A stretch of DNA of 64,000 bases from an uncultured Chloroflexia bacterium (GTDB taxonomy: Bacteria; Chloroflexota; Limnocylindria; Limnocylindrales; CSP1-4). Position 1 is the first letter of the stretch; every line of letters starts with the position of its first letter. The position numbers and the translations under genes were made by a program. The stretch spans positions 25,698 through 89,697 of the forward strand of contig CAVRZS010000005.1 of NCBI GenBank assembly GCA_963725745.1, in the 5' to 3' direction. The notes under the pieces are model-generated. The model saw only the letters and a program-made list of their open reading frames with translations. It searched no databases and was not told the DNA's origin. Positions 6,346-23,573 of the stretch are shown piece by piece.

Positions 6346-6749
6346 GCCCCGACGCCCACCCCGACGCAGAAGCCCACGCCGACGCCGGATCCCACGGCGA
6401 CACCGACGCAGAAGCCCACCGCCACGCCGACGGCCGCCCCGACGGCGACCCCGACCGTGGCCCCGACGGCGACCCCGACCGTGGCTCCCACGGCGACGCC
6501 GACGGCCGCACCGACCGCGCACGGCCCACCGCCACGCCGACCGTCGCCCCGACGGCGACGCCGACGATTGCGCCCACGGCGACCCCGACCGTGGCTCCCA
6601 CGGCGACGCCGACCGTGGCTCCAACGGCGACGCCGACGGCCGCACCGACCGCGACGCCGACCGCCAGGCCCACCGCGACGCCGACCGCGGCCCCGACGGC
6701 GACGCCGACGGTCGCACCGACGCCCACGCCCGCGCCGACGGCGGCGCCG
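6346..6749 (+). repeat. Imperfect tandem repeat, about 24-nt period, encoding an (A-P-T-A-T-P-T-V)n Pro/Thr linker
   Basis: Repeated GCSCCGACGGCGACSCCGACCGTG-type units are read directly. They translate to APTATPTV/APTATPTA units in two different frames on either side of the frame break. Confidence 0.75.
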
Positions 6750-7125: not shown

Positions 7126-8298
7126 GCTCGTGCCCGAGCTCGCTGCAGACCCTCGTCGACCAGGCCCCGTCCGGTGGCACGGTCTCCGTCGGCGCGTGCA
7201 CGTTCCACCAGACCGTCACGATCACCAAGCCGCTCACCCTCCAGGGCAACGGCACGGTCATCACCGGTGACAAGTCACGCACGTACGGCATCGTCGTCAC
7301 CGCCAACGACGTCACGATCGACGGCTTCACCGTCAAGGACACGACCAACCCGAACCAGGACGGCGCCGTGCGGGTGCGCAACGCCTCGCGCTTCACCTTC
7401 CGCGATGGCGTGATCACCGGCGCCGTCGGCGCGTGCATCAGCATCGCGGGCGGTTCGAACAACACCGTCGCGACGTCGACCCTCGCCTACTGCGGCCAGG
7501 AGGGCTTCCACGCCACAGGCGTGAACGGCCTCACCTACGACTCCAACAGCATCCACGACAACAACCCCAACTCCGCCAACGACCCCTATTGGGAGGCTGG
7601 CGCGGGCAAGGTCACCAACACCTCGAACCTGCTGTTCCGCAACAACGACGTCTACGCCAACAAGGGCCCGGGCCTGTGGTGCGACATCGACTGCACGGGC
7701 GTCACGTTCACCGGCAACCGCGTCCATGGGAACGACCAGTCAGGGATCTTCTTCGAGATCAGTGACGGCGCCGTGATCGAGAACAACGTGGTGTGGAACA
7801 ACGGCTGGACGCGGACGGGCTGGGGCTGGGGTGCAGGCATCCTCGTCTCGTCCTCCCGCAACGCCGAGGTGCGCAACAACACGGTCGCGTGGAACGCCGA
7901 CGGGATCTCGGTCATCAGCCAGAACCGCGGCGACGCGCCCGGGCCGATCATCGGGAACAACGTCCACGACAACGTCGTCGTGGTCGCGCCCAAGTCCACC
8001 GACTCCTCGGAGAAGATGGAGCTGGCCTGGCTCCAGGACTGGGGCGGGGTTCTCTACTCCTCCGGGTCCAACAACCGCGGCGCGTCGAATCGCTACTGGA
8101 TGTCGACGGCCGAGCCCACGGGCGGGCGCTTCAACTGGAACGGCGGCATCTCCACCCTGAGCTCGTTCAACTCGACTCCGGGTGAGGAAGCCGGATCGTA
8201 CCTGACGAGCGCCCAGAAGGACTCCTTGCTGAGCGCGGCCGGCATCCCGACCACCGCTCCGTAGCCACCCCGGCCGGCCGCCGGCCGGTCCCGCTCAT

Positions 8299-9379: not shown

Positions 9380-10731
9380 GTGAGCTCCCTTGCGCTGGGT
9401 GGCCGGCGACGCCGGCGAACGAGGACGATCAGGGCGGCGATGGCCGCGATAAGGGCGATGGCCGCCAGTCCAGCCGGCACGACGAGGTCGCGCGGGTCGA
9501 ACACGGCGGGATGGATGGCCGGGTGGCCCGGCAGGTCGGCCGAGGCCAGCGCGTCGGCAATCTCGGCATCGGTGAGATAGGCGGCGTCGGTCCCGCCCGC
9601 GGTCGCGCGGAAGTCGCCGAGGCTGGACAGGTTCGAGCCCCAGGCGAAACGCGCGTCGCGACCCTCGGGTCCGGTGAACCAGAACCGGTCGCCGCTCCCG
9701 CCGTTGCCCGACGTCGCCTTGGTCAGGACGGCGGACCCGTCGACCAGCCAGGCCTCGCCGAACGCCTCACGCCCCGTCTCCGAGGCCACGATGTTGCCTT
9801 CGCTGCGAAGGCCCGTGGCCGGGCCGGGCGAGTCGTCGCGATCCTGGCTCACGACGACGATCCCGTCCGCGTTCCAGGCGAGCACGTTGTCGATGACGGC
9901 CACGTTGCGTGACGTGGAGACGAGGATGCCTGCACCCCAGCCCCAGTCGGTGCGGCCCCATCCGTTCTCCCAGACCACGTTGTCCTCGACCGTGGCGCCG
10001 TCGCTGATCTCGACCTGGATGCCCGCGCGCGCGTTGCCGTGGACCCGGTTGGCACGGATCGTGGCATCGCGACACTCGATGTCGCACCAGATCCCGGGTC
10101 CGTGGTTGCCGACGACCTCGTTGTCCTCGAACCGGACCCGGGCGCTCTGGGTCACCTTGGCCCCGCCGGCCTCCCACTCGGGATCGAAGGCGGCCGCCGG
10201 GTTGTTGCCCGAGATCCGGTTGCCGGTGACGGCCAGGTCGTTCGCCTCGGTGGCGTGCAGGCCTTCCTGGCCGCAGCCCTCGAGCGTCGACCCGGTCACG
10301 GACGAGCCCTCGCTCCGGGCCACGCTGATGCAGGCCCCGGCGGCGTCGCGGATCTGGCCATCGCGGAACGTGAATCGGTCGACGTCCCAGGCGCGAACGG
10401 CACCGTCCTGCGGCGGGTTGGCGACCGAGGTCACCGTCAGGCCGGCGATCGTGACGTCATCCGCTTCGACGATGACCGCGTGCTCGAGCCGGCCCTGGCC
10501 GTCGATGACGGTGCCGTGGGCGTCGATGGCGAGGGGCCGGTCGATGGTCAGCGGCTGCGTGCTCGTGCACGCGGGGAGACGCACCGAGCTGCCTGCGGCC
10601 GCCCCGTCCACGACGGCCTGCAACGGCTCCGAGCAGCGCGGCGGACCTGGCGACGCGGATCCCTCGGCGGTGGGCGCCGGCAGGGACCCGGAGGGACCGG
10701 CCGCCCGGATGGCTCCCGTCGTCACCAGCAT
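9376..10731 (-). CDS. Right-handed beta-helix repeat protein, paralog of 5860-8264, with a C-terminal TM anchor
   Basis: Shares [75 protein letters not shown] with the 7150-8264 domain. Ends in [25 protein letters not shown]. No N-terminal signal peptide is visible. Confidence 0.8.
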
Positions 10732-11848: not shown

Positions 11849-13153
11849 TCAGATCGGGCTCGACCCGAAGAAGTGCCGGTACTGCTCGCTGCGGAGCTCG
11901 TCGGCCAGCCGACCCGGCGGGAGCTCGACGTCGTCGTACCGGATGACCTCGTCCTGCGCGATGTCGCGCCGCAGGACGCAGCCCTCCACGAGACCCTCGG
12001 GCAGGTACACCTGCTCGCGCATCTCCGCGCTGTTCACGGCCTCTCCGTAGGTCATGTAGTTCCCGTACTCGTCGAGTGTCTCGCCCCGCAGCAGCGGTCG
12101 CTTGGCGACCGCGCAGACCTCGACCACGGGCCCGCCCAACGGTTCAGCCAGGCCGTCGCGGAACAGGCGGACCCGGGCGATGGCGTTGGGCACCTCGAAG
12201 TGGACGAGATGGTAGGGGATCCAGAACGCGTACAACGGCCCGGGCCCCATCTTGTACAGCTCGAGGTAGTGGCGCTGCTTGGGGTCGTCGTGCTCGGCGA
12301 GCACGTAGACCTTGGTGTTGATCGTGCCGACCGTGTAGTCGATGATTCCACCCAGCTCGCGGATCTCGTCGAGACGTGGCAGGTACAGCTCGGGCAGCTT
12401 CTCAGGTGGCTCGCGAAACTCGAGCCCCCTCGACATCCCCCGCTCCAGGACGCCGAAGCCGGTCGCGTTGGCGACGATCGCCTGCTCGCAGCTGATCTTC
12501 GTCCCGTCGGCGAAGCTCGTGACCATGGCGGCGTTCTGGCCCCACCGCTCCGCCCACCCCTGCTGCGTCGTCGGGTTGCGATACGGATCCTGCAGGCCCT
12601 TGACGTTGCCGACGACGCGCGGGATGAGCCCAAGGCCGCGGACCCATCGGACCAGGTTCATCTGCACGCCCGGCTCGTCGCCGTCGCACGCCGACAGGAT
12701 GACCCCGTGCGCGCGCGCCCGGACCTGGAGGATCGGCCCGATCGTCGCGTCCAGCTCGGCGTTCAAGAGGACCACGTCCTTGCCGTGGGCGAACGCGTCG
12801 AGCACCGCGTGGGCGGCGTACTCGACCGCGCCGGTCGCCTCGACCAGGACGTCGACGCAGTCGCTTCGGCACAGGAGCTGCCAATCGTCGGTGATCGCGA
12901 CCGCGCCTCGGGCGACCGCGGCGTCCAGCGCGCCGATCGAGTCCACCGCGACCGGGTCGGCCCCGGCGTAGCGGACGACGTGCTCCGCGCGTTCGACACG
13001 GCGGCCGGCGACCGCCACCAGCCGCATGCCGGCGACGCTGTTGACGATCTGGTTGGCGAGGCCCTGGGCCATGAAGCCGGCGCCCAGGATCCCGACCCGG
13101 ATCGGCGTCCCGGCGGCCTCCAGCTCGCGGAGGGCGGTGTCGACGAGGATCAT
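11849..13153 (-). CDS. NAD(P)-dependent oxidoreductase with C-terminal SAF domain (COG4091-like, homoserine-dehydrogenase-like fold)
   Basis: IRVGILGAGFMAQG Rossmann motif, a long conserved core (GDEPGVQMNLVRWVRGLG..VVGNVKG) and a C-terminal SAF-like segment. ATG at 13153 chosen; the 47 codons upstream are Arg/Cys-rich junk that overlaps the neighbouring gene. Confidence 0.75.
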   Translation of the reverse strand: MILVDTALRELEAAGTPIRVGILGAGFMAQGLANQIVNSVAGMRLVAVAGRRVERAEHVVRYAGADPVAVDSIGALDAAVARGAVAITDDWQLLCRSDCVDVLVEATGAVEYAAHAVLDAFAHGKDVVLLNAELDATIGPILQVRARAHGVILSACDGDEPGVQMNLVRWVRGLGLIPRVVGNVKGLQDPYRNPTTQQGWAERWGQNAAMVTSFADGTKISCEQAIVANATGFGVLERGMSRGLEFREPPEKLPELYLPRLDEIRELGGIIDYTVGTINTKVYVLAEHDDPKQRHYLELYKMGPGPLYAFWIPYHLVHFEVPNAIARVRLFRDGLAEPLGGPVVEVCAVAKRPLLRGETLDEYGNYMTYGEAVNSAEMREQVYLPEGLVEGCVLRRDIAQDEVIRYDDVELPPGRLADELRSEQYRHFFGSSPI

Positions 13154-13157
13154 CGGG

Positions 13158-13724
13158 TCAGCCCGCGCCCATGCGACGGGCGACCTCGTCCCCGACCTCG
13201 GCCATGAGCGGCCACACGCGGTCCTTGTCCGACATGTCGCCCGGCGGCAGCGGCCAGGTGATCCCGAAGGCCGGATCGTCGAACCGCAGGCCACCCTCGT
13301 GCTCTGGCGAGTAGAACTCGCTCACGATGTAGCTGGTCTCGGTGACGTCCTCCATCACCTGGTAGCCGTGCGCGAACCGGCGCGGCACGTAGAGCGACCG
13401 CGCGTTGTCCGCGCTCAGCTCGACCGCGACGTGCTGCAGGTACGTCGGCGACTCGGGGCGCAGGTCGACGATCACGTCGATGATCGCGCCGCGCGTGCAC
13501 CGGACGAGCTTGGTCTCGGCCTTCGGCGGGTATTGGAAGTGCATGCCGCGGACCGTCCCGCGGCGATGGTTGTAGCCCACGTTGGCCTGGGCGATCACCG
13601 GCTCGAGGCCATGGTCACGAAACTCATCCTGGCAGAACGCCCGCGCGAACCAGCCGCGCACGTCCTCCCGACGCTCGAGATCGATGACGAAGGCCCCCGC
13701 GAGCTTCGTCTCCGTGAAGATCAT
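13158..13724 (-). CDS. dTDP-4-dehydrorhamnose 3,5-epimerase-like cupin (RmlC family)
   Basis: MIFTETKLAGAFVIDLERREDVRGWF..RGMHFQ..ETKLVRCTRGAIIDVIVDLR..SLYVPRRFAHGY is the canonical RmlC pattern. The remainder of the 565-aa track ORF is antisense junk. Confidence 0.85.
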   Translation of the reverse strand: MIFTETKLAGAFVIDLERREDVRGWFARAFCQDEFRDHGLEPVIAQANVGYNHRRGTVRGMHFQYPPKAETKLVRCTRGAIIDVIVDLRPESPTYLQHVAVELSADNARSLYVPRRFAHGYQVMEDVTETSYIVSEFYSPEHEGGLRFDDPAFGITWPLPPGDMSDKDRVWPLMAEVGDEVARRMGAG

Positions 13725-13928
13725 TCCGTCCCTCGTTCGCAATGGCACGCTGATCGAGCCCGCCGCCGATGGTACTGGTCCCCAATGCAGCCGACGAGGG
13801 GTCAGGAGGCCGATCTGCGAGGTGACGTTGCGGACCGTCAACGGAATGGCGTCGAGGCGGATGGCACTCGGCCAATCCGTCGGCGACACTAGGACCGTTG
13901 GGCTACGCCGCAACGGGATGACGATGGG
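13725..13928. promoter_or_regulatory. Divergent promoter/operator region between the rmlC-like operon (-) and the rfbF operon (+)
   Basis: 204-bp gap between divergent starts. It contains two inverted repeats sharing a GGACCGT core: CGTTG-N8-CAACG at about 13826-13843 and CCGTTG-N10-CAACGG at about 13895-13916. No promoter hexamers are confidently assigned. Confidence 0.25.
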
Positions 13929-14720
13929 ATGAAAGTCGTGCTCTTTTCGGGGGGCCTCGGGCTCCGGATGCGCGAGTATTCCGAGGTCGCCCCGAAGCCG
14001 ATGATCCCGGTCGGGGTGCGGCCCGTGCTGTGGCACGTCATGCGCTACTACGCGCACTTCGGTCACCGGGACTTCATCCTGTGCCTGGGCTACCGGGCCG
14101 ACCTCGTCAAGTCGTACTTCCTCAACTACAGCGAGGCGATGTCCAACGACTTCGTCATGGAGGACGGCGGCCGCTCGCTCGAGCTCGTGCGAACCGATAT
14201 CCAGGACTGGCGGATCACGTTCGCCGACACCGGCGTGAACACGATCGTGGGACAGCGCCTGCGCGCGATCCGGCCCTACGTCGCGAACGAGGACATGTTC
14301 CTCGCCAACTACGGCGACACGCTCACCGACGCGCCGCTGCCGGAGCTGATCGAGAAGTTCCGGGCGACCGACAACGTGGCCGCCTTCCTCGCGGTCCGGC
14401 CCACCTACTCGTTCCACCTCGTCGACGCGGACGACGATGGACGGGTGCGCTCGATCAGCAACGTCCGGGAGGCCGAGACCCGCATCAATGGCGGCTACTT
14501 CATCCTCCGGCGCGAGATCTTCGACTACATCAAGGAGGGCGAGGAGCTGGTCGAGGAGCCGTTCAAGCGGCTCATAGAGGAGGGCCGCCTGATGGCCTTC
14601 AAGCACGACGGCTTCTGGGCGCCGATGGACACCCTCAAGGACAAGCAGGATCTCGACGCGATGTACGACGGCGGGTCGCCGCCGTGGGCCCTGTGGCAGG
14701 ACAAGCGGGACGCGCCTTGA
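13929..14720 (+). CDS. rfbF: Glucose-1-phosphate cytidylyltransferase
   Basis: MKVVLFSGGLGLRMRE..PKPMIPVG.RPVLWHVMRYYAHFGHRDFILCLGY..INGGYFIL..GFWAPMDTLKDK matches RfbF end to end. Confidence 0.9.
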   Translation: MKVVLFSGGLGLRMREYSEVAPKPMIPVGVRPVLWHVMRYYAHFGHRDFILCLGYRADLVKSYFLNYSEAMSNDFVMEDGGRSLELVRTDIQDWRITFADTGVNTIVGQRLRAIRPYVANEDMFLANYGDTLTDAPLPELIEKFRATDNVAAFLAVRPTYSFHLVDADDDGRVRSISNVREAETRINGGYFILRREIFDYIKEGEELVEEPFKRLIEEGRLMAFKHDGFWAPMDTLKDKQDLDAMYDGGSPPWALWQDKRDAP

Positions 14721-15403
14721 TGCTGGGCCTGGGCCCGCTCGGCGACCGATCGCTGACGCTCCTGTGCCTCGGTGCTCATCCCGACGACATCGAGATCGGC
14801 GCAGGCGGCACGATCCTGCAGCTCGCCGCGTCCGGCCGCGTCGCATCGGCGACATGGGTGGTGATGAGCGGCACGCGGGAACGCGTCGACGAGGGCACGC
14901 GCGCGGCCGAGGCCTTCCTCGACGGCATCCCGCAGCGCTCCGTCGTCTTCCACGACCACCGGGACGGCTTCCTGCCCGCCGCGTTCGCGGAGCTCAAGGA
15001 CCAGTTCGAGGCTTTGAAGGCATCCGTGCAGCCCGACATCGTCCTGGCGCCGCGCACCGACGATGCCCACCAGGACCATCGCCTCGTCGCCCAGCTGGCC
15101 TGGAACACCTACCGCGATCACCTGATCCTCGAGTACGAGATCCCCAAGTACGACGGCGACATGGGCTCCCCCAACGTCTACGTCCCGCTGGACGAAGCCA
15201 CCCTGGGCCGCAAGCTCGACCTCATCGCGGGCTCGTTCGGCTCGCAGTCCGCCCGCTCCTGGTTCGATCCCGAGACCTTCCGCGGGCTCGCGCGGCTGCG
15301 CGGGATCGAGGCGGGCAGCGAGACCCGCTATGCCGAGGGGTTCCGCGGACGCAAGGTCCGGTTCGCCGTCCAGGCCGCCGCCGGCCCGGGCGCAACGTCG
15401 TGA
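14720..15403 (+). CDS. PIG-L/LmbE family deacetylase
   Basis: LLCLGAHPDDIEIGAGGT and DDAHQDH motifs. The ATG overlaps the rfbF TGA by 1 nt. Confidence 0.85.
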   Translation: MLGLGPLGDRSLTLLCLGAHPDDIEIGAGGTILQLAASGRVASATWVVMSGTRERVDEGTRAAEAFLDGIPQRSVVFHDHRDGFLPAAFAELKDQFEALKASVQPDIVLAPRTDDAHQDHRLVAQLAWNTYRDHLILEYEIPKYDGDMGSPNVYVPLDEATLGRKLDLIAGSFGSQSARSWFDPETFRGLARLRGIEAGSETRYAEGFRGRKVRFAVQAAAGPGATS

Positions 15404-16302
15404 TGCTGCTGGCCGTCCTGACCTTCGCCCTGGGCTGGGCGATCGGGTTCGGGTTCCGGGCGTCGGCCCTCGCCGCCGACCAGCGACGCGAACGCATCCG
15501 GTGGACGGTGTTCGGGGCGATCCTCGGGCCCGGTGCCCTGGCCATCCTCCAGACCGCTCCGCCGGGCATGTGCGGGTCGTGCCTGAGCGTCGTCCCGGGC
15601 TGGTCCTTCACCTGCCGGATCTGCGGGGCCGACGTGCGGGTCAGGCCGGAGTTGTTCGACGCCGCCGAGGCCTCACCACCCTCGAGGCTTGGGACGCCGA
15701 TGGCTCACCCGATCGCAGGTGCGGTTTCGTGGCCCGACTCGACCGTCGTCAGCGCATGGCGGACCGGGGTTCCGCCCGCGTCCGTGGCCCGGCGCCTGCC
15801 CGCCCAGAGCGCAGCGCCCGATCCTCGCAGCGAACCGGACGCCGGCGAGATTGCCGATCACGAGATCCCCGGCTTGTTCGCTGCGGCCATCGCCGCGGCC
15901 ACGGGCCGGTCGGCGGATGTCGAGGAATCGGTCACGGCGCCGACTCCGGAGGTCGACGCCGCCTTGCGCCCCGTCCGCCTCGCGTCGGTGGTGTTCGTCG
16001 AAGGCTCACTGTCGCTGCGCCCGGGCCTGCCCTACCAGCTCCTGGCGCAGGGCCGCGACCTGCGGATCACTGGGCCGTCGAGCGGGCTCGCGAACGACGA
16101 GATCGTATCCGAGCCGATCGACGAGCTGCGGGTGTCGGTGCGCGGCGACCGGATGCTGGTCTCGGGGACGTCCGAGGCGCTCGCGGACCTGCGGCTCGTG
16201 TTCACGAAGACCGAAGATCTGACAGGGCGCGGCATCGCGCGCGAGGTCAACGCCCGGCGGCGCGCGATCGCGGCCGGCGCCGGAGCGGCGACCTGGCAAT
16301 GA
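15403..16302 (+). CDS. Hypothetical membrane protein with zinc-ribbon-like CxxC..CxxC and an uncharacterised C-terminal domain
   Basis: Two N-terminal hydrophobic helices, CGSCLSVVPGWSFTCRIC, then about 200 aa with no recognisable motif. The ATG overlaps the upstream TGA by 1 nt. Codon third-position GC is high, like the neighbouring genes. Confidence 0.6.
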   Translation: MLLAVLTFALGWAIGFGFRASALAADQRRERIRWTVFGAILGPGALAILQTAPPGMCGSCLSVVPGWSFTCRICGADVRVRPELFDAAEASPPSRLGTPMAHPIAGAVSWPDSTVVSAWRTGVPPASVARRLPAQSAAPDPRSEPDAGEIADHEIPGLFAAAIAAATGRSADVEESVTAPTPEVDAALRPVRLASVVFVEGSLSLRPGLPYQLLAQGRDLRITGPSSGLANDEIVSEPIDELRVSVRGDRMLVSGTSEALADLRLVFTKTEDLTGRGIAREVNARRRAIAAGAGAATWQ

Positions 16303-16427
16303 ACGACGTTCGGCTTTGGGCCCTATCCACTGTCGAGCGACTCGGACCGGAGCGTTTCGCCGCAGGGCTGAGCGCGCTGGTGCTCGTGGTTTTCGGCCTG
16401 CTCGTGCTGGTGCTCGCCACGCGCTGA
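16299..16427 (+). CDS. Possible 42-aa single-TM peptide, translationally coupled
   Basis: ATGA overlap at 16299-16302. MNDVRLWALSTVERLGPERFAAGLSALVLVVFGLLVLVLATR carries one hydrophobic helix. Too short for any independent support. Confidence 0.35.
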   Translation: MNDVRLWALSTVERLGPERFAAGLSALVLVVFGLLVLVLATR

Positions 16428-16460
16428 CGGCTGGTGCCTCGCGATACCGTCACGGTCTCA

Positions 16461-16959
16461 CGACCTCCGTCTGCGCCTCAGGCCAGCGCCAGCGCTCCGA
16501 GGTGCTCGGTCAGGCGCAGGTTCTCGCGGTAGTCGATCGGGACCTCGACCAGCGACGGCCCGTCGACGTCGAGCGCCCGACCCAGTGTCGGCCGCAGGTC
16601 GGCGGCGGACGCCGGCCGGAACGCGGCCATCCCGAACGACTCAGCGAGGGCCACGAAGTCCGGGTTGCCGAAGTCGACCCCGAACGGGCGCCCGAACTCG
16701 TTGCGTTGCTTCCAGTCGATCAGGCCGTAGCCGTCGTCACGCCACACCACGACCGTCACCCGCACCCCGAGCCGGACCGCCGTCTCGAGCTCCTGGACGT
16801 TCATCAGCAGGCCGCCGTCGCCGCACAGCGCGACCACGTGACGATCCGGGTGCACGAGGGCGGCCGCGATCGCCCCCGGCAGCGCGATGCCCATCGAGGC
16901 GAAGCCGTTGGAGATGATCACGGTGTTCGGCTCGTAGGCCTGGTACAGCCGGGCCACCC
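16461..16959. repeat. Direct repeat copy A (499 bp): orphan 3' end of the TPP-enzyme gene plus 17 nt downstream
   Basis: Read base by base against 19613-20111. Identical except C at 16754 versus G at 19906, which is synonymous on the minus strand. Confidence 0.9.
16478..16957 (-). pseudogene. Truncated duplicate of the TPP-binding acetolactate-synthase-like gene (C-terminal 159 codons only)
   Basis: The translation ARLYQAYEPNTVIISNG...LTEHLGALALA is identical to the C-terminus of the 19630-21327 product. There is no N-terminal or central domain. Confidence 0.85.
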
Positions 16960-17095
16960 GCCATGGGTTGTCAGCGGGAGGCCGTCGAGGCGCACCCAGC
17001 GTCTACAGCCGCGCTGGCAGATGGCCGTCTTGACCAGCACCTCCGCGGGCGGCGTGGCCGGGCGAAGGAACCCGCCGTCCCGCAGGACGCAAGAA

Positions 17096-17122
17096 GGGCC
17101 CGACGAGGGACTCGTCGGGCCC
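17096..17122 (-). terminator. Intrinsic-terminator-like hairpin downstream of the Ig-like repeat protein gene
   Basis: GGGCCCGACGAG-GGA-CTCGTCGGGCCC is a perfect 12-bp stem. It lies 30 nt after the TAA at 17152-17154 and is followed on the minus strand by CTTCTTG. Confidence 0.5.
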
Positions 17123-17151
17123 AAGGTGACCGCTGCGCGCGGTCGCTCAGA

Positions 17152-19071
17152 TTACTGGCTGCTCACCGTCCCGCCGTTGGTGACGGTGAGGTTCGACGTC
17201 TCATGGCAGCTCACCGCGATGTCGCGCTGGCCGCTGTTGGTGCTGTCGTACTCGACCGACCACGCGTAATTGTTCGTCGCGGTCGCCGTCACGTTCTGGT
17301 TGTTCGTGGAAACCGTCTGCGGCGAGGCGCCGGAGACGGCCTTGTCCTCGCTGTAGATCGACGAGCCCGTGCAGGTGCTCGAGGCATACAGCTTGAACTT
17401 GACGGTTCCGGCGAGGTTGCCGCCAGCCGTTGCCGACACGGTCGCAGAGTCGTTCGGCAGCCAGGCCTGTGCCGTCGAGAGCGACGACGGCACGGTCGTG
17501 ACGACGACGTCCTCGTTGGTGTCAGCGCATGTCGCGTTGTGCGTTGTACCGCTGTTGTTCGGCAGGTTGCCGCTATAGACGGCCACCCAGTGGTAGGTTC
17601 CTGCGGCGGCCGGGGTGAACTGTGGGTCCGGGCTGTTGTATGGCCCGTTGCCGCTTACCGCGACGGCCGCTGACGTGTACGCCAAGGTGGTGCAGTTGTT
17701 CGGACCGTACAGCTTGAACGTGATGGTCCCCCCGGCGGCTGCTCCTCCGGTGCCCGTCAGGTTGATGACAGGGTTGGCCGGCTGCGTGGCGGTGCCACCC
17801 AGCGTTGCCGTGTCGGACACGCTGTTGCCAAGGATCACGTCGGCGCCGGCCGACGTCGACAAGGTGGGCGTTACCGGATTGACGGTGAAGCACTCGGTGG
17901 CCGAGGAGTCACTCGAGCTCGGGATCCCATTGGCGGAGTCGCCGCTGAACACGGCGCGCCAGCAATAGCGGCCGGCCGACGTCACATACGCGGTCGGGGA
18001 CTGCACCGTGACCGGATACGCAGTACCTGAGAGGTTGGTGGAGCCGACCGATGTGCCGCCAGTGGCGCAGAGCCCCGGAGCGTCGACCTTGCACAGGGAG
18101 AAGGCCACCGAGCCGGCCGGCGTGGCGGAGCCACCGGTGAGGCTCACGACGGCCGAGTCCGCGACGGCGAGGACACCGGTGCCGATGGAAGCGCCTCCGG
18201 CCGGAACGTTCCCAGCCGAGCCGCCCGTGACGACCTTAGGGGTAGTCCCCGTTGTCGAGGTGCAGTTCGTGATCGGCGGCGTGGTGGTGAGGATCGTGTC
18301 CTTATAGTCGGCCGTGTCGGAGTTGCCTGTCACGGTGCTCGGAACCGTGTTGGCGAACGACTTGCAGGCGGTGCTACCGCCGAAGATCGTCGCAGTCAGG
18401 TCCACAGCGGCTTCACCCATGAAACCATCGGAGCTGTACGCCGCCTGCGACGTGTTTGCGTCGAGCAGCGTCGCCGGACCGAGGGTCAGGTTCGGTGCCG
18501 TGCCGGACCAGGTCCGAAGGTACAGGTTGAGGCTATTGCCCTGCTGGTCCCACAGGATCATGAAGTCGCCTGCGGTCCGGTTGGCCCACGGGTTGCAGTT
18601 CGCGATCAGCTCGGCGTCGGTGGCGGTGCCATAGGCGCAGCCTGCGGGGGGCGCGTTCTTCATGAACTCGTAGGCAATGAAGCCGCTGCCGCTGTTGGCA
18701 TCGCGCTCCCAGGCGAAGTAGAGCCAATCGTGCTGAGTCGATGTGTCTCGCTCGGTGTCAAGCCACGCGCGGCGGAGGTCCACCTGGGCGTTCGGATTCG
18801 TCAGGCCGAGCGTTGGCACGGCATCGCTGTGGATGACGCCGATCTTCGTGGTGTTCGAGTTGAGCGGCCCGAGCTCCTTGACGTTGCCGGACAAGTCGGG
18901 CAGTTCGGTCGTGTTGGCATCGGGGATCGTGCCGTCGATCGTATAGGGGCCGTCGGCCGCCAGGGCGAACGGTGTGGTGATGATTGCGCTCGCGAGCACA
19001 AGTGCTGCGCTCGCAAAGGCAACAAGCCTCCGCCGAGCTTGTCGCGGCGGTTGGACCGCGCGATTTCTCAC
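17152..19071 (-). CDS. Secreted protein: unrecognised N-terminal domain plus three Cys-containing Ig-like (Big_3_5-type) repeats
   Basis: GTG at 19071 follows GGGAGGGAG by 5 nt (alternative ATGs at 19107 and 19173). Signal peptide RRRLVAFASAALVLASAIITTPFALA-ADG. Three repeats of the pattern G(T/S)V.F.LY....C.........V.(G)....S......AG.Y.W.A.YSG(D/N)....S.....C..E.(V/F)TV. No LPXTG motif. Confidence 0.8.
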   Translation of the reverse strand: MRNRAVQPPRQARRRLVAFASAALVLASAIITTPFALAADGPYTIDGTIPDANTTELPDLSGNVKELGPLNSNTTKIGVIHSDAVPTLGLTNPNAQVDLRRAWLDTERDTSTQHDWLYFAWERDANSGSGFIAYEFMKNAPPAGCAYGTATDAELIANCNPWANRTAGDFMILWDQQGNSLNLYLRTWSGTAPNLTLGPATLLDANTSQAAYSSDGFMGEAAVDLTATIFGGSTACKSFANTVPSTVTGNSDTADYKDTILTTTPPITNCTSTTGTTPKVVTGGSAGNVPAGGASIGTGVLAVADSAVVSLTGGSATPAGSVAFSLCKVDAPGLCATGGTSVGSTNLSGTAYPVTVQSPTAYVTSAGRYCWRAVFSGDSANGIPSSSDSSATECFTVNPVTPTLSTSAGADVILGNSVSDTATLGGTATQPANPVINLTGTGGAAAGGTITFKLYGPNNCTTLAYTSAAVAVSGNGPYNSPDPQFTPAAAGTYHWVAVYSGNLPNNSGTTHNATCADTNEDVVVTTVPSSLSTAQAWLPNDSATVSATAGGNLAGTVKFKLYASSTCTGSSIYSEDKAVSGASPQTVSTNNQNVTATATNNYAWSVEYDSTNSGQRDIAVSCHETSNLTVTNGGTVSSQ

Positions 19072-19612
19072 GATGTCTCCCTCCCGTGGATATTGATGCG
19101 TCGTCATGTATGGCCGCCCTGTATGGCAGCCGACGAAACTGGCCGAATGTCTCGCCTCGATGGATGAGTGCATCCGATGTCGACAGGCCTTTCAGTCTTC
19201 TCGACACGGCGATCCGGACCGGGTTGCCCCCTGACTCGGCTTGTGGCTCAGAGCGTCATCGTCCAGACCGAAGGGCAGTCGACGCAGTAGGCAGACGCGC
19301 ACAGAAGGTCGACCGGCGAACCGATCCGGGCAACTGAAGGCACGGTCATTGGTGAAGACCGGACTCTCCGAAACGCCTAGACCACAGGCGATGACCCTTC
19401 TTCCCCCGGTTGGAAGAAGTGGATGCGACTCGCTCCCCAGCGGCTCGCCGCTCCTCGCACCGGCTGCGTCCCCTGTCGCGTGCCGGGATCGGGAGTGTGG
19501 TTTAGCAGTACGAAAGTACCCCGGTCAATGGGTACGGGAGCCCTGTCACCGAAAGCCGTTGCATCGGGTCAACGGTGCGCTGTCACTAGGACTCCCCGTA
19601 CCACGTGTCCAG

Positions 19613-20111
19613 CGACCTCCGTCTGCGCCTCAGGCCAGCGCCAGCGCTCCGAGGTGCTCGGTCAGGCGCAGGTTCTCGCGGTAGTCGATCGGGACCTCGA
19701 CCAGCGACGGCCCGTCGACGTCGAGCGCCCGACCCAGTGTCGGCCGCAGGTCGGCGGCGGACGCCGGCCGGAACGCGGCCATCCCGAACGACTCAGCGAG
19801 GGCCACGAAGTCCGGGTTGCCGAAGTCGACCCCGAACGGGCGCCCGAACTCGTTGCGTTGCTTCCAGTCGATCAGGCCGTAGCCGTCGTCACGCCACACC
19901 ACGACGGTCACCCGCACCCCGAGCCGGACCGCCGTCTCGAGCTCCTGGACGTTCATCAGCAGGCCGCCGTCGCCGCACAGCGCGACCACGTGACGATCCG
20001 GGTGCACGAGGGCGGCCGCGATCGCCCCCGGCAGCGCGATGCCCATCGAGGCGAAGCCGTTGGAGATGATCACGGTGTTCGGCTCGTAGGCCTGGTACAG
20101 CCGGGCCACCC
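19613..20111. repeat. Direct repeat copy B (499 bp), continuous with the intact TPP-enzyme gene
   Basis: See copy A. The offset between copies is 3152 bp. Confidence 0.9.
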
Positions 20112-21327
20112 AGATCTTGTGGGCGCCGACGTCGCTGACCACGATGTCGCTCGCCGCCATCACCGCGCGGAGGTCGGCGATCGCCTTCTGGGGCCGGATC
20201 GGCCAGCCCTCGTCCGCATCGTAGGCGGCGAGCTCGCGCAGGAGCTCCGACCGCAGGTCGGCGTGCACGAGCACCTCGCGCGACAGGTGGCGCGCGGTCG
20301 CGTCCTTGCCACTGATTCCCCGCGGCAGCAGCGCCCCGAGCAACCGGCGGAGCGTGCCGCCGATGTCGCCGATCAGCTCGACCTCCGGTCGGTAGGCGGC
20401 GTCGACCTCGGCCGGCGTCGTGTCGATGTGCACGATCCGCGTCGTCCCGCCGGGGTTCCAGAGGCCCGGGCCGTATTCGACCGGGTCGTACCCGACCGAG
20501 ATCACGAGGTCGGCGCGATCGAACCCAGAGAGCACGTGATCGCGGGCCTGGAGCCCGACGGCCATAAGCGAGAGGTGCGACCGGTCGTCGATGGCGCCCT
20601 TGCCCATGAACGTGACCGCGACCGGGACGTGGAGCCCGCGGGCGAAGTCCCGCAACTCGGGCGAGGCCCGGCGGCGCAGCACGCCGTTGCCGGCCAGGAT
20701 CAGCGGACGCTCGGCGGCGGCGATCAGGTCGGCGGCCCGCGCGATGGCGTCGTCGGTGGGCTCCGGGAACGCCGCCGCCGCCAGCACCAGCGGCGCCAGC
20801 GCCGGGTCGACCTCGCGCGCCGCGATGTCCTCCGGCAGCTCGATATGGGTTGGACCGGGCTTCTCGAGGCGCGCGACCCGGAACGCCTTGGCGACGATCT
20901 CGGGGATCGCCCCCGGGACCTCGACCCGGGCCGTCCACTTGGTGACGGGCTCGAACATCCGCGGGATGTCGACGTACTGGTGCGATTCCTTGTGCACCTT
21001 GTCGATGCCCGTCTGGCCGGTGATCGCGACCATCGGGGCCCGATCGAGGTAGGCGTCGGCGATGCCCGTGACCAGGTTCGTGGCGCCCGGGCCGAGGGTG
21101 GCCAGGGCGACGGCGGGCCGCCCGGTGAGCCGACCGTAGACGTCGGCCATGAACGCCGCACCCTGTTCGTGGCGCGTGGTGACGTGGCGGACCTGGCGGT
21201 GGTCCGCGAGCGCCTCGAGGATGTCCATCGTCTCCTCGCCGGGCACCGAGAACACCCATTCGCAGCCTTCAGCCGCGAGGCAGTCAACGAGGAGGTGGGC
21301 GGCGGTGCGCCGGTTGCCGGTGATCAC
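19630..21327 (-). CDS. Thiamine-pyrophosphate-dependent enzyme, acetolactate synthase large-subunit-like (function unknown)
   Basis: AAHLLVDCLAAEGCEWVFSVPGEE..RHEQGAAFMADVYGRLTGRP..LGPGATNLVTGIADAYLDRAPMVAITGQ, with a C-terminal GDGG..N TPP motif. The GTG at 21327 overlaps the upstream TGA (GTGA). Confidence 0.85.
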   Translation of the reverse strand: MITGNRRTAAHLLVDCLAAEGCEWVFSVPGEETMDILEALADHRQVRHVTTRHEQGAAFMADVYGRLTGRPAVALATLGPGATNLVTGIADAYLDRAPMVAITGQTGIDKVHKESHQYVDIPRMFEPVTKWTARVEVPGAIPEIVAKAFRVARLEKPGPTHIELPEDIAAREVDPALAPLVLAAAAFPEPTDDAIARAADLIAAAERPLILAGNGVLRRRASPELRDFARGLHVPVAVTFMGKGAIDDRSHLSLMAVGLQARDHVLSGFDRADLVISVGYDPVEYGPGLWNPGGTTRIVHIDTTPAEVDAAYRPEVELIGDIGGTLRRLLGALLPRGISGKDATARHLSREVLVHADLRSELLRELAAYDADEGWPIRPQKAIADLRAVMAASDIVVSDVGAHKIWVARLYQAYEPNTVIISNGFASMGIALPGAIAAALVHPDRHVVALCGDGGLLMNVQELETAVRLGVRVTVVVWRDDGYGLIDWKQRNEFGRPFGVDFGNPDFVALAESFGMAAFRPASAADLRPTLGRALDVDGPSLVEVPIDYRENLRLTEHLGALALA

Positions 21328-23573
21328 ACGGAAAGTGTATGGGCGTCCTCGATGACGATGAGGGCATCGACCGCCACGGCGCCCCACGAGCCGGCGATGA
21401 CGGGGTTGAGGTCCACCTCCACAATGGTGCTATCGGCGTTGAGCAGGTCGCCGAGCGCGACGACGAGGTCGGCGATCGCGCCGGCATCGACGGCGTCGGC
21501 ACCGCGGACGCCACGCAGCAGGGCGGATCCCCGGAGGCCGGCGAGGCTCGCCGCAACCTCGTCGCGGCCCACGGGCGCCAGCATCACCGCGACGTCGTCG
21601 AGCGCCTCGGCCAGGATCCCGCCCAGCCCGACCAGCACCGCCGGTCCGAACACGTCGTCGCGCCGGCCGCCCACGATCAGCTCGACCCCCGTCGCGGCCA
21701 TGGGTTCGACGAGCAGGCCGCGAGGCTCGACGCCGGTACGCGCGGCGGCGGCGATCAGCTCCCCGACCGCCGCTCGGATCGCCGGGTCGTCCGTCACCCC
21801 GAGGGCCACCCCGCCGACGTCGCTCTTGTGGGCCAGCCCGGGAGCGTCCAGCTTGACGGCCACCGGTCCGCCGCCGAGGTCCCGCCAGGCCCGGATCGCC
21901 GCGTCCGGCTGGGCAGCGATCGCCCGCCAGGCCGTCACCGGGATCCCGGCCTCCGCCAGCCGTGCCAGGCTCTCCCGTTCGGACAGCGCGATTCGGGCAC
22001 CCCCGGCGGCGACCCGCGCCAAGGGGTCGAGCACGGTATCGGCGCCCCACGCGATGGCTTCCGCCGCCAGGGCCGGCCAGCCCGGCCGGCGAGGCCCGGA
22101 CTCGAGGCGCCGGGCATGCCGGCGCGACCAGGTCGCGTGCCGCGCGATCGCCGCGAACGCCTCGACCGCCCCCTTGAGCATCGGCATGCCGCCGTGCTCG
22201 TCGAGATAGGCCTTGACCGCGTCGCTGACATCGTTCGACGTCAGCGAGACGTAGACAGGCAGCAGCTCGGGCCGCTCGGCCGTGGCCTCCACCAGCGCCC
22301 GGCTGACGGTGGTGGCGACGTCGACCTCGCTGGGCAGGTCGCGGAACGGGTTGTCGTGGACGACCGCGAGGACGTCGTAGGCGCCCGAGGCCGCCATCGC
22401 CTCGAACGACGCCCGGTAGGCGATGGACTCCTCAGCCGCGCCCCACGGGTCGAGCGGGTTGCCGATGTAGCCCATCGTCGGCAGGTCCCGCAGGATCGCC
22501 TCTCTCGCCTGCGGGGTCACCGGCGGCAGGTCGAGGCCGGTCCGGTGCGCGAGGTCGGCCACCAGCGACGCCTCGCCGGTCGACACCGTCACGACGCCCG
22601 TCCGGCCGCCCCGCATCCGCCGGCCCAGGCGCCCGATCCCGGCGGCGAGCTCCGCCGCCTCGAGCAGCTCGTCGAGGTCGTCGCAGCGGATCACGCCGGC
22701 GGCGTCGAGGGCGGCGGTCGTCACCCGGTCCTCACCCGCCAGGCTGCCGCTGTGGGCGATCGCGGCCGCCTGGGCCTGCGCAGAACGACCCACCTTCACC
22801 GCGAGGATGGGCTTGCCCATGGCCAGCGCCCGGTCGGCCAGGGCGAGGAAGCGCTCGGGTCGCTTGAAGCCCTCGACGAACAGCATGACCGCGTGGGTCT
22901 CGGGGTCGTCGAGGCAGTACGCGAGGTAGTCGCACAGGTCGAGCACGACCTCGGCGCCCACAGACACGATCCGGCTGTAGCCGATGCGCGTGCCGGGTGC
23001 GTGCAGGAAGGCGTCCGTGACGCTGCCCGACTGCGCGAGGCCGGCGACATGACCGCGCGGCAGCCACGGGTTGACGTCGCCGATGTAGGTCGAGCTGTTG
23101 GTCGTCCAGTCGACCGCACCCATGCAGTTGGGCCCCAGCAGCGCGATCCGGTGGCGGATGGCGATGTCCGCGACCGTGCGCTGCATCTCCGCGGCGGCCT
23201 CGCCCCCTTCGACGACGCCGCCACCCGGGATCACGAGGCTCGGGACGCCGGCGTCGGCGGCCTCCTGCGCGAACCGGGCGGCACGCAGCGGGTTGACCGC
23301 AAGGATCGCCGCGTCCGGGCGCTCGGGGAGCGCATGGATCGTCGGGTAGCAGGGTTGCCCGAACGCCTGCTCGTAGTTGGGGTTGACGAAATGGCAGCGG
23401 GTCTCGCTGCCCATCCGGGCCAGGTTGTCGCGCACCGTGAGCGCCAGGGTCGAGCGCGGGCTGGCGCCGATGATCGCGATCGAGCGCGGCGCGAACAGCG
23501 GCCGCAGATCGATGCCACCGGTGCTCGCCGCGGCAGCCGGGGCCGGGGAGGCGACCGGCTCCGGGGACGTCAT
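21324..23573 (-). CDS. ADP-forming acyl-CoA synthetase family protein (CoA-binding plus succinyl-CoA-synthetase-like plus ATP-grasp domains)
   Basis: SIAIIGASPRS CoA-binding start, GPNCMG, HSGSLAG phosphohistidine-loop-like segment, and a C-terminal ATP-grasp region (AVKLDAPGLAHKSDVGGV). Confidence 0.85.
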   Translation of the reverse strand: MTSPEPVASPAPAAAASTGGIDLRPLFAPRSIAIIGASPRSTLALTVRDNLARMGSETRCHFVNPNYEQAFGQPCYPTIHALPERPDAAILAVNPLRAARFAQEAADAGVPSLVIPGGGVVEGGEAAAEMQRTVADIAIRHRIALLGPNCMGAVDWTTNSSTYIGDVNPWLPRGHVAGLAQSGSVTDAFLHAPGTRIGYSRIVSVGAEVVLDLCDYLAYCLDDPETHAVMLFVEGFKRPERFLALADRALAMGKPILAVKVGRSAQAQAAAIAHSGSLAGEDRVTTAALDAAGVIRCDDLDELLEAAELAAGIGRLGRRMRGGRTGVVTVSTGEASLVADLAHRTGLDLPPVTPQAREAILRDLPTMGYIGNPLDPWGAAEESIAYRASFEAMAASGAYDVLAVVHDNPFRDLPSEVDVATTVSRALVEATAERPELLPVYVSLTSNDVSDAVKAYLDEHGGMPMLKGAVEAFAAIARHATWSRRHARRLESGPRRPGWPALAAEAIAWGADTVLDPLARVAAGGARIALSERESLARLAEAGIPVTAWRAIAAQPDAAIRAWRDLGGGPVAVKLDAPGLAHKSDVGGVALGVTDDPAIRAAVGELIAAAARTGVEPRGLLVEPMAATGVELIVGGRRDDVFGPAVLVGLGGILAEALDDVAVMLAPVGRDEVAASLAGLRGSALLRGVRGADAVDAGAIADLVVALGDLLNADSTIVEVDLNPVIAGSWGAVAVDALIVIEDAHTLSV

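What the first reader, a model, noticed from the sequence alone, without database searches (positions are those of the whole stretch)
16461..20111. 499-bp near-perfect direct repeat of a gene 3' end brackets a lower-GC single-gene insertion with no mobility genes
Segments 16461-16959 and 19613-20111 were aligned by eye. They differ at one synonymous position (16754 C versus 19906 G). Each copy comprises the last 480 nt, the stop and 17 nt downstream of the TPP-enzyme gene. Copy B is continuous with the intact gene, while copy A is an orphan fragment abutting the polysaccharide locus. The 2653 bp between them are visibly less GC-rich (hand-counted lines 58-65% versus 72-75% in the flanks). That stretch carries only a secreted Ig-like repeat protein gene with its own strong RBS, a terminator hairpin and a 440-bp upstream non-coding region. 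The topology matches what a single-crossover (Campbell-type) integration of a circular DNA carrying a 499-bp homology segment would leave. It also matches a 3'-end-restoring island. However, no integrase, transposase, inverted repeats or vector-like genes are present. Near-identity of the repeats implies either a very recent event or ongoing gene conversion. The cassette should also be excisable by homologous recombination, which would give on/off heterogeneity of a surface protein.
Basis: partly seen in the sequence, partly recalled or inferred. Interest (0 to 1): 0.7.

Follow-up and report, generated by a model that had tools for sequence, protein, structure and literature searches.

The report
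Recombination scar beside a variable surface-protein gene
An uncultured soil Chloroflexota genome carries both the "gene present" and "gene absent" versions of a variable surface-protein locus fused in tandem, which leaves a 499-bp duplicated gene end; this is most likely an ordinary scar of recombination between strains rather than a new kind of mobile element.

Summary
The repeat is real in the sequence. Segments 16461-16959 and 19613-20111 are identical except for one synonymous site, and both ends are sharp.

The host is a Limnocylindria-type Chloroflexota. The 2653-bp "insert" is not a fresh foreign arrival. The same cassette (promoter-like site, conserved leader, secreted Ig-like-repeat protein "hem", terminator) lies just downstream of the same TPP-enzyme gene in related genomes L164 and L172. 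Neither of those has a repeat. Close relatives of those two, and L002, have an empty site.

So hem is an old present/absent variant between two convergent genes, next to a polysaccharide locus that differs among relatives. The window holds both junction types. Only 16959/16960 is a new, illegitimate joint. The other repeat end, 17 nt after the stop codon, is where the two allele types naturally stop matching.

A short-read contig from an independent sample (L173) confirms the copy-A junction and ends exactly 30 nt into the repeat.

Best explanation: exchange between hem+ and hem- strains of one species, anchored on shared sequence at one end only. This could be homology-facilitated illegitimate recombination or a circularised fragment plus a single crossover.

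Main rival: an assembly that wrongly places two alleles in tandem (about 0.17). The new joint has not been verified independently. Interest is low to moderate.

The parts
15397..16302 (+). Gene X, a membrane/zinc-ribbon-like protein and the last large gene of the polysaccharide-side flank.
   Evidence: GC-frame analysis and translation. tblastn with the 416-aa homologue from L171/L166 hits this frame at 15397-15735 and 15946-16251.
16299..16427 (+). Small gene Y, encoding a 42-aa hydrophobic peptide. Its ATG overlaps the stop of X (ATGA).
   Evidence: The same 42-aa ORF is called at the same place in L164 and L169-L172. An identical protein occurs on two Logan short-read contigs.
16428..16460 (.). 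A 33-nt spacer of the hem-minus type, lying between the stop of Y and repeat copy A.
   Evidence: The region is collinear with the empty-site relative L002. The independent short-read contig L173 confirms this junction.
16461..16959 (-). Repeat copy A. It is an orphan TPP-enzyme 3' end: 479 nt of coding sequence, the stop at 16478-16480, and 17 nt downstream. The 159-codon ORF at 16478-16957 has no promoter or RBS of its own.
   Evidence: Its only cluster mate is the full TPP protein from the same contig.
16959..16960 (.). J1, the only novel (illegitimate) joint. It connects TPP codon -160 to the end of the hem downstream spacer.
   Evidence: Identity ends sharply here. The flanks share no similarity. 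This adjacency occurs in no relative.
16960..17151 (-). The spacer downstream of hem, containing a conserved 12-bp-stem hairpin at 17096-17122.
   Evidence: Folding gives -49.9 kcal/mol, z = -3.4. The hairpin is conserved in L164 and L172, and homology with L082 reaches this point.
17152..19071 (-). hem, a 639-aa secreted protein. It has a signal peptide, an N-terminal domain of unknown fold, and tandem Ig/FN3-like beta-sandwich repeats.
   Evidence: AlphaFold2 model with pLDDT 67. Foldseek matches only tandem Ig/FN3 proteins. No Pfam, NCBIfam or PDB sequence hit.
19072..19612 (-). The 541-nt region upstream of hem. It holds an RBS (GGGAGGGAG, 19077-19085), a promoter-like TTGACC-N18-TAAACC at 19499-19528, and a conserved leader at about 19385-19525.
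   Evidence: The block is conserved with L164 and L172 only. It is absent upstream of the actinobacterial homologues.
19613..20111 (-). Repeat copy B, the 3' end of the intact TPP gene plus 17 nt.
19630..21327 (-). The intact TPP-dependent enzyme gene, acetolactate-synthase-large-subunit-like. It was called as 565 aa; the longest ORF runs to 21387.

Best explanation
The space between the convergent TPP-enzyme gene and the small gene Y exists in two alternative forms in this Limnocylindria clade.
- The hem+ form holds a cassette of about 2.6 kb with its own promoter, leader, secreted Ig-like-repeat protein and hairpin.
- The hem- form holds a spacer of a few dozen bases.

The window is a tandem fusion of both forms. 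I infer that DNA from a strain of the same species carrying the other form recombined by homology through the shared TPP 3' end. At the other end it was joined illegitimately at 16959/16960. This could have happened in two ways that leave the same product:
- homology-facilitated illegitimate recombination of a linear fragment; or
- end-joining of the fragment into a circle, followed by a single crossover.

The result is an intact TPP gene, a hem gene that keeps its own expression signals, and a dead 159-codon TPP fragment. Because 499-bp direct repeats flank hem, RecA-type recombination between them would remove hem and exactly restore the hem- form.

**Shown:** the two allele forms in relatives; the homology of the cassette across genomes; the uniqueness and sharpness of J1; the independent confirmation of the copy-A junction.

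**Inferred:** the order of events, which strain was donor and which recipient, and the enzymes involved.
For: **Same cassette at the same site, without repeats.** L164 and L172 have SCL...TPP-hem-Y/X. Window homology with L164 runs through the TPP stop into the upstream region of hem, including a conserved promoter-like site and leader.

**Empty sites.** L002, which is as close as L164 (TPP 91% versus 92% aa), has TPP directly beside Y/X and is collinear with copy A and its flank. L166 and L168-L171 belong to the same species as L172 but lack the cassette: 2.58 kb is replaced by about 67 bp.

**hem presence does not track the flanking phylogeny.** In the last 483 nt of TPP, hem+ L172 differs from hem- L169 and L170 by 3-4 nt, but from hem+ L164 by 20 nt. 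So one difference in 499 between donor and recipient of one species is plausible.

**Stop+17 is a natural allele boundary.** The hem- spacer of L002 begins ACGAGGGGACCCGGCCCGT, matching the hem+ start ACGCGGGGCCCGGCCCGT of L172, and then diverges. The short-read contig L173 (ERR11523661) is 99.63% identical to 15409-16490. It carries the copy-A junction and stops exactly 30 nt (k-1 if k = 31) into the repeat, as expected at a de Bruijn branch at 16461.

**The duplication is not a property of hem.** None of 44 hem loci with enough flank on both sides has flanking repeats. hem is absent from the plasmid and phage collections.

**Both routes are documented in bacteria.** One-ended homologous plus illegitimate integration, and circularisation followed by a single crossover, are both described in PMC3240628. 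Similar processes are invoked for orphan 3' fragments and immunity-gene arrays in PMC5361080.
Against: - J1 (16959/16960) is seen only in this one long-read contig. No independent read or assembly supports it.
- No genome of the same species with a plain hem+ allele was found. This hem allele appears nowhere else in the protein collection: the best other hit is 80% over the full length and 74% over the C-terminal 140 aa.
- Microhomology at J1 cannot be assessed without the partner allele.
- The sequence cannot distinguish this model from a purely intrachromosomal duplication.
- Competence, conjugation and end-joining capacity of the host are unknown.
Confidence: 0.52

Rival explanations
1. Assembly artefact, specifically a false "heterotype" duplication. 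The sample held both hem+ and hem- strains of one species. The long-read assembler, or a chimeric read, placed the two alleles end to end. That would create J1 and a near-identical duplicate of the shared TPP 3' end.
For: - hem+ and hem- strains of one species do occur across samples in the sister species.
- An independent sample shows a branch exactly at 16461, so allele mixtures exist.
- The copies differ at only one site, which is the level expected between strains.
- Related contigs from the same ENA series show many split genes, which suggests noisy consensus sequence.
- J1 has no independent support.
Against: - The two sides of J1 share no similarity, so no false overlap could have produced it.
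- A random chimeric join landing 3 kb away, on the same strand and at the same locus, is improbable.
- There are no Ns or adapter-like sequence at J1.
- The genes in the window are intact.
Confidence: 0.17
2. An intrachromosomal event in a hem+ genome. A 499-bp copy of the TPP 3' end was inserted into the spacer downstream of hem, either by template switching during replication or by end-joining repair. The window form would then be the intermediate through which hem- alleles arise, by recombination between the repeats.
For: - It would give two initially identical copies without needing a donor.
- Pop-out of hem would give exactly the copy-A-type junction seen in L173.
- The L002 hem- spacer keeps the first 19 nt or so of the hem+ upstream region.
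Against: - It needs two new joints (J1 and 16460/16461) rather than one.
- There is no detectable microhomology at either joint.
- The stop+17 boundary coincides with the old allele boundary seen in L002 versus L172. That coincidence would be unexplained.
Confidence: 0.15
3. A foreign, actinobacterial-type circular DNA or island carrying hem was recently inserted into an empty site, with a 499-bp target duplication. On this view it is a new type of mobile cassette without mobility genes.
For: - The named homologues at 73-80% identity are Actinomycetota.
- The cassette has lower GC than the window.
- L002 has an empty site.
- No integrase or transposase is present.
Against: - The cassette, with its promoter-like site and leader, is at the same site in L164 and L172 without repeats.
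- It is also in the same neighbourhood in L165.
- Both repeat copies are host sequence.
- Lower GC is typical of hem in every host examined.
- No other hem locus has flanking repeats.
- hem was not found on plasmids or phages.
Confidence: 0.05
4. An old duplication made when hem first arrived. It was kept in this lineage and held at 99.8% identity by gene conversion, while relatives lost it.
For: hem has long been resident at this locus.
Against: - No relative keeps even a degraded second TPP 3' end.
- Direct repeats of 499 bp would delete hem readily.
- A non-functional fragment has no obvious reason to persist.
Confidence: 0.04

Closest known systems
Homology-facilitated illegitimate recombination. 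It was described in Acinetobacter, Streptococcus pneumoniae and Pseudomonas stutzeri, and during conjugation in E. coli (PMC3240628; references 41, 42 and 47 in PMC5361080).
   Same: One end of the incoming DNA is integrated through a homologous anchor, here the TPP 3' end. The other end is joined without homology, here at J1. No mobility genes are needed.
   Different: - Here it is only inferred from the final product. Donor, recipient and uptake route are unknown.
- The usual experimental outcomes are insertion with deletion. Here the illegitimate joint falls so that the anchor is duplicated.
- Microhomology at the joint could not be checked.
Campbell-type single-crossover integration of a circularised fragment. 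PMC3240628 reports that linear DNA in E. coli can be circularised by ligation and then integrated by a single crossover.
   Same: The product has direct repeats of the homology segment flanking the inserted DNA. One copy completes the gene and the other is truncated. The repeats allow precise loss.
   Different: There is no vector or replicon backbone and no evidence for a circle. The "insert" is an allelic segment from the same locus, not foreign DNA.
Displaced orphan 3' fragments and immunity-gene arrays at Rhs, CDI and T6SS effector loci (PMC5361080 and the work it cites).
   Same: A conserved upstream gene serves as the recombination anchor for a variable downstream module. Imperfect replacement leaves orphaned pieces beside the new module.
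   Different: - Here the orphan is a piece of the conserved anchor gene, a metabolic enzyme, not of a toxin.
- The variable module is a secreted Ig-like-repeat protein.
- There is a single event, not an array.
Switching of capsule or O-antigen loci by homologous recombination in conserved flanking genes. This rests on general knowledge and was not looked up here.
   Same: The TPP gene borders a polysaccharide-type locus whose content differs among relatives. hem presence varies within a species.
   Different: Clean switches leave no duplication. This one left a scar.

Membership tests
Single-crossover (Campbell-type) or one-ended homologous integration product | Two direct, near-identical copies of one chromosomal segment flank the extra DNA. 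| tested here: met
   498 of 499 positions identical, same orientation, offset 3152.
Single-crossover (Campbell-type) or one-ended homologous integration product | One copy completes an intact gene and the other is a truncated orphan. Relatives have a single copy. | tested here: met
   Pfam domains. One TPP 3' end in each of L002, L164, L166, L167 and L168-L172.
Single-crossover (Campbell-type) or one-ended homologous integration product | One joint is illegitimate, being either a fragment end or the closure point of a circle. | tested here: inconclusive
   J1 is sharp, unique, and its flanks are unrelated. The partner allele is not available, so microhomology and the original adjacency are unknown.
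Single-crossover (Campbell-type) or one-ended homologous integration product | The structure is physically present in cells: molecules span it, and excision products exist. | not testable with these tools
   No reads are available. Only the copy-A junction is independently confirmed.
Site-specific integrative island that restores the 3' end of its target gene | An integrase or recombinase gene is carried by, or lies next to, the element. | tested here: not met
   The insert carries only hem. All other sequence from about 10 to 27.7 kb is syntenic with relatives.
Site-specific integrative island that restores the 3' end of its target gene | Short att repeats, with the element-borne copy diverged from the host copy. 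| tested here: not met
   The repeats are 499 bp and both are host-type sequence, 79-89% identical to other Limnocylindria.
Transposon or insertion sequence | Terminal inverted repeats, a transposase, and a short target-site duplication. | tested here: not met
   The insert ends have no inverted repeats and there is no transposase. The duplication is 499 bp.
Cross-phylum horizontally transferred gene (hem family) | Close homologues in a different phylum, with the host copy nested among them. | tested here: met
   73-80% aa identity to proteins of Phycicoccus, Pedococcus, Janibacter, Nocardioides and Microbacterium. The tree is star-like with the window copy embedded. The direction and date of transfer are not resolved. 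The transfer is not recent at this locus.
Phase-variable (on/off) surface gene | Reversible switching observed within one population. | not tested
   Only the potential for one-way loss through the repeats is evident.

The most novel reading that the evidence does not exclude
The repeat-flanked arrangement could be a recurrent, selectable state rather than a one-off scar. On this reading, soil Limnocylindria toggle a secreted adhesin-like protein through homology-anchored capture and repeat-mediated loss, with the 3' end of a housekeeping gene acting as a landing pad. The same promoter-bearing single-gene cassette family would also pass between Chloroflexota and Actinomycetota without any dedicated mobility machinery.
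Probability: 0.08. Interest if true: 0.55.

Novelty: new member of a known kind. Interest (0 to 1): 0.3.

Why it matters
If the structure is real, it is a footprint of homologous plus illegitimate recombination between strains of an uncultured soil Chloroflexota lineage, at a surface-structure locus that differs among relatives and varies in hem content within a species. That is direct sequence evidence for how accessory genes are gained and lost there without mobile elements. It also provides a cassette that can be lost precisely.

It also flags an uncharacterised, highly conserved family of secreted proteins shared between Actinomycetota and Chloroflexota.

If it is an artefact, it is a useful example of two alleles from a strain mixture being placed in tandem in a long-read metagenome assembly. 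Either way, it is not a new type of element.

Tried and rejected
- **Rfam** on 15.5-21.5 kb gave only a sub-threshold sRNA hit at the hairpin. No riboswitch or known RNA lies in the 541-nt leader.
- **Domain and structure searches for hem.** Pfam (including E up to 5), NCBIfam and PDB sequence search found nothing. Foldseek gave only generic tandem Ig/FN3 matches.
- **Plasmid and phage collections** have no hem homologue, so a plasmid or phage vehicle is rejected.
- **Homology of the insert's non-coding flanks** to actinobacterial or JGI hem loci: none.
- **A second, degraded TPP 3' end** downstream of hem in L164: none.
- **A remnant of a second Y gene** in 16960-17084: none by eye.
- **Extended diverged homology outside the repeat ends:** none.
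- **Flanking repeats at 44 other hem loci:** none.
- **Exact-protein look-ups** of the window's hem and TPP found no other contig.
- **A search with the hem C-terminal 140 aa** found nothing above 74% identity, so this hem allele is unseen elsewhere.
- **Ancestry of the mismatch.** L002 has G at the mismatch site and four other relatives have C, so which state is ancestral cannot be decided.
- **The consensus scan** found no sigma-70 match and did not call the hairpin as a terminator.
Full report
**1.

A repeat search and a base-by-base comparison confirm that 16461-16959 and 19613-20111 are direct copies, 499 bp long and offset by 3152 bp. They differ only at 16754 (C) versus 19906 (G). That site is a synonymous third codon position, ACG versus ACC. 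Identity ends abruptly at both ends, and gapped alignment of the outer flanks finds nothing above shuffled controls.

Copy B is the 3' end of a complete thiamine-pyrophosphate enzyme gene (19630-21327/21387, minus strand). The protein has N, M and C domains and fits the acetolactate-synthase-large-subunit model NF006187. Copy A is an orphan C-domain fragment.

The 2653 bp between the copies have 65.6% GC, against 71.8% for the window. They carry one gene, which I call hem (17152-19071, minus strand, 639 aa). Its start is a GTG preceded by GGGAGGGAG. A strong hairpin lies downstream at 17096-17122, and 541 nt of non-coding DNA lie upstream.

Minor corrections:
- The coding part of each repeat is 479 nt, not 480.
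- The neighbouring "16427 gene" is a 42-codon small ORF (Y, 16299-16427). It overlaps the stop of a larger gene (X, about 15397-16302).

**2. Whose genome, and whose gene**

The TPP enzyme's relatives in species-representative genomes are all Chloroflexota of the Limnocylindria/"Chloroflexia" type, with up to 91% aa identity.

The hem protein has no Pfam, NCBIfam or PDB sequence match. It does have more than a thousand homologues. The named ones, at 73-80% identity, come from Actinomycetota: Phycicoccus, Pedococcus, Janibacter, Knoellia, Nocardioides and Microbacterium, where they are labelled "hemagglutinin". At first this looked like a cross-phylum import or a chimeric assembly.

**3. The turning point**

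The nearest hem homologue (P0011, 80% identity) lies on contig L164, which is syntenic with the window:
- The CoA-ligase-like gene (SCL, window 21324-23573) region is 82.5% identical in nucleotides.
- The TPP gene is 84% identical in nucleotides and 92% in amino acids.
- hem follows directly downstream of TPP.
- Homologues of Y and X and polysaccharide genes come next.

The alignment with the window runs through the TPP stop codon and into the region upstream of hem. A block of about 140 nt is strongly conserved there, including TTGAC(C/T)-N17/18-TA(A/C)ACC. The downstream hairpin is conserved too.

L164 has only one TPP 3' end and no trace of a second.

Five further contigs share an identical TPP C-terminal fragment and so belong to one species (94-97% nt identity, consensus sequence with many frameshifts). 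One of them, L172, has the cassette. L168-L171, together with L166, do not. In those, 2.58 kb is replaced by about 67 bp, bounded by the TPP stop codon and a point about 15-20 nt before the stop of Y, with no repeats.

In the last 483 nt of TPP, hem+ L172 differs from hem- L169 and L170 at 3-4 sites, but from hem+ L164 at 20 sites. hem presence is therefore uncoupled from the flanking phylogeny, as expected if alleles are exchanged by recombination.

Other relatives:
- L002 is as close to the window as L164 and shares the direct SCL-TPP adjacency. It is hem- and collinear with copy A plus its flank.
- L167 is also hem-.
- The more distant L165 (about 75% nt) has hem next to the CoA-ligase-like gene, without TPP.

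hem genes have lower GC than their surroundings in every host examined. None of 44 hem loci with enough flank on both sides has flanking repeats. hem is absent from the plasmid and phage collections.

**4. What the structure is**

hem is a long-resident present/absent cassette that fills the space between two convergent genes, next to a polysaccharide locus whose gene content differs among relatives. The window contains both junction types:
- TPP-to-hem, as in L164 and L172.
- TPP-to-Y, as in L002.

The repeat end at stop+17 is where the two allele types stop being homologous. Two observations support this:
- The hem- spacer of L002 begins with about 19 nt that match the start of the hem+ upstream region of L172, and then diverges.
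- A short-read contig from an independent run (L173, ERR11523661) is 99.63% identical to 15409-16490. It contains the copy-A junction and ends exactly 30 nt into the repeat. A k = 31 de Bruijn graph does this when a sequence has two different left contexts. The k value of Logan is from my own knowledge. A second contig ends one base before a T/C polymorphism at 16445, which shows that these contigs do break at branch points.

Only J1 (16959/16960) is a joint that exists in neither allele type.

**5. Mechanism**

The simplest account needs one homologous exchange in the shared TPP 3' end and one illegitimate joint. Three routes give the same product:
- A hem+ fragment entering a hem- cell.
- A hem- fragment entering a hem+ cell.
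- A circularised fragment integrating by a single crossover.

Both one-ended integration and circularisation followed by a single crossover are documented fates of linear DNA in bacteria (PMC3240628). Similar processes are invoked for orphaned 3' fragments and immunity-gene arrays at Rhs and T6SS loci (PMC5361080).

The single difference between the copies implies that donor and recipient were nearly identical there, which the sister species shows to be realistic. It also implies that the event is recent.

Recombination between the 499-bp repeats would delete hem and restore the hem- allele exactly. This is inferred, not shown.

**6. Rivals**

The main rival is an assembly error that places two co-occurring alleles in tandem. 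The precondition, a mixture of strains, is plausible, and J1 has no independent support. Against it:
- The two sides of J1 share no similarity that could cause a false overlap.
- A random chimera would rarely join two points 3 kb apart on the same strand.

An intrachromosomal duplication in a hem+ genome cannot be excluded. It needs two new joints, and it leaves unexplained why one of them coincides with the old allele boundary.

The literal "foreign cassette newly inserted" reading and the "old duplication kept by gene conversion" reading are both poorly supported.

**7. The cargo**

hem has a Sec-type signal peptide (…FALA|ADG). The AlphaFold2 model built from 30 homologues has a mean pLDDT of 67:
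- The N-terminal region of about 230 aa is poorly predicted.
- About four beta-sandwich domains follow.

Foldseek matches the model only to tandem Ig/FN3 proteins and a bacterial adhesin stalk. The family is unusually conserved, with 78% mean column identity and many invariant Cys, Trp and Gly residues. Its tree is star-like, and the Chloroflexota copies are embedded among actinobacterial ones.

The function is unknown. A secreted or surface-binding protein is the best guess. The "hemagglutinin" label is only an annotation with no tested basis that I could find.

**8. Verdict**

- The "new lower-GC insertion" reading is replaced by "tandem fusion of two old alleles".
- This is a new instance of a known kind of recombination scar, of modest interest.
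- The outstanding question is whether J1 exists in real molecules.

Noticed in passing
window 19385-19528 (minus strand); L164 9582-9724; L172 about 7660-7800: A block of about 140 nt upstream of hem is conserved. It holds a promoter-like TTGACC-N18-TAAACC followed by a leader with a hairpin (CTTCTTCCAACCGGGGGAAGAAG). It is conserved among the three Limnocylindria hem+ loci but absent upstream of the actinobacterial homologues. It has no Rfam match. The start codon lies more than 400 nt further on, so this may be a regulatory leader.
   Followed up: partly
window 16299-16427 (+): A 42-aa hydrophobic small ORF (MNDVRLWALSTVERLGPERFAAGLSALVLVVFGLLVLVLATR). Its ATG overlaps the stop of the upstream gene. 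It is conserved as a 42-aa ORF in L164 and L169-L172, and an identical protein occurs in two Logan short-read assemblies. The long ORF 15330-16427 that covers it is in the wrong frame upstream.
   Followed up: partly
window 17152-19071 and homologues (P0003-P0120): The hem family has no Pfam or NCBIfam model. Pairwise identity is about 75-80% across Micrococcales, Propionibacteriales and Limnocylindria, and the tree is star-like. Phycicoccus sp. Soil803 shows two entries (P0029, P0032) whose aligned residues are identical. In Intrasporangiaceae-type contigs hem lies next to a radical-SAM gene (L001, L082).
   Followed up: partly
L164 5503-7723; L166-L172, equivalent positions: The sister species has a three-gene block, including a Peptidase_M73-like gene, between the CoA-ligase-like gene and the TPP gene. 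In the window and in L002 these two genes abut, with stop and start codons overlapping at 21324-21327.
   Followed up: no
L060 16906-17916: A distant hem-like gene, 43% identical over the C-terminal repeat half, lies about 5 kb downstream of the TPP gene in another Chloroflexota MAG.
   Followed up: no
window 6354-6748: A degenerate tandem array with periods of 12, 24, 48 and 72 nt, rich in ACG/CCG/GCC units. It probably encodes a Pro/Thr/Ala-rich linker.
   Followed up: partly
window 7475-7946 and 9820-10291: A 472-nt inverted repeat, 71% complementary, with arms 1873 nt apart. This could be a pair of divergently or convergently oriented paralogous gene segments.
   Followed up: no
window about 12000-15000: The polysaccharide-type genes (dTDP-sugar epimerase, PIG-L/LmbE-like deacetylase) also have lower GC, 65-69%. 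They are shared with L002 at 86% nt but are replaced by different gene sets in L164, L166 and L167. The whole flank differs in gene content among relatives.
   Followed up: partly
L165-L172 (ENA ERZ250395xx contigs): Many genes in these related long contigs are split into fragments. For example, TPP is called as pieces of 124, 170, 265 and 285 aa. This suggests indel errors in the consensus, so fragment lengths in protein searches of these assemblies should not be read as real truncations.
   Followed up: no
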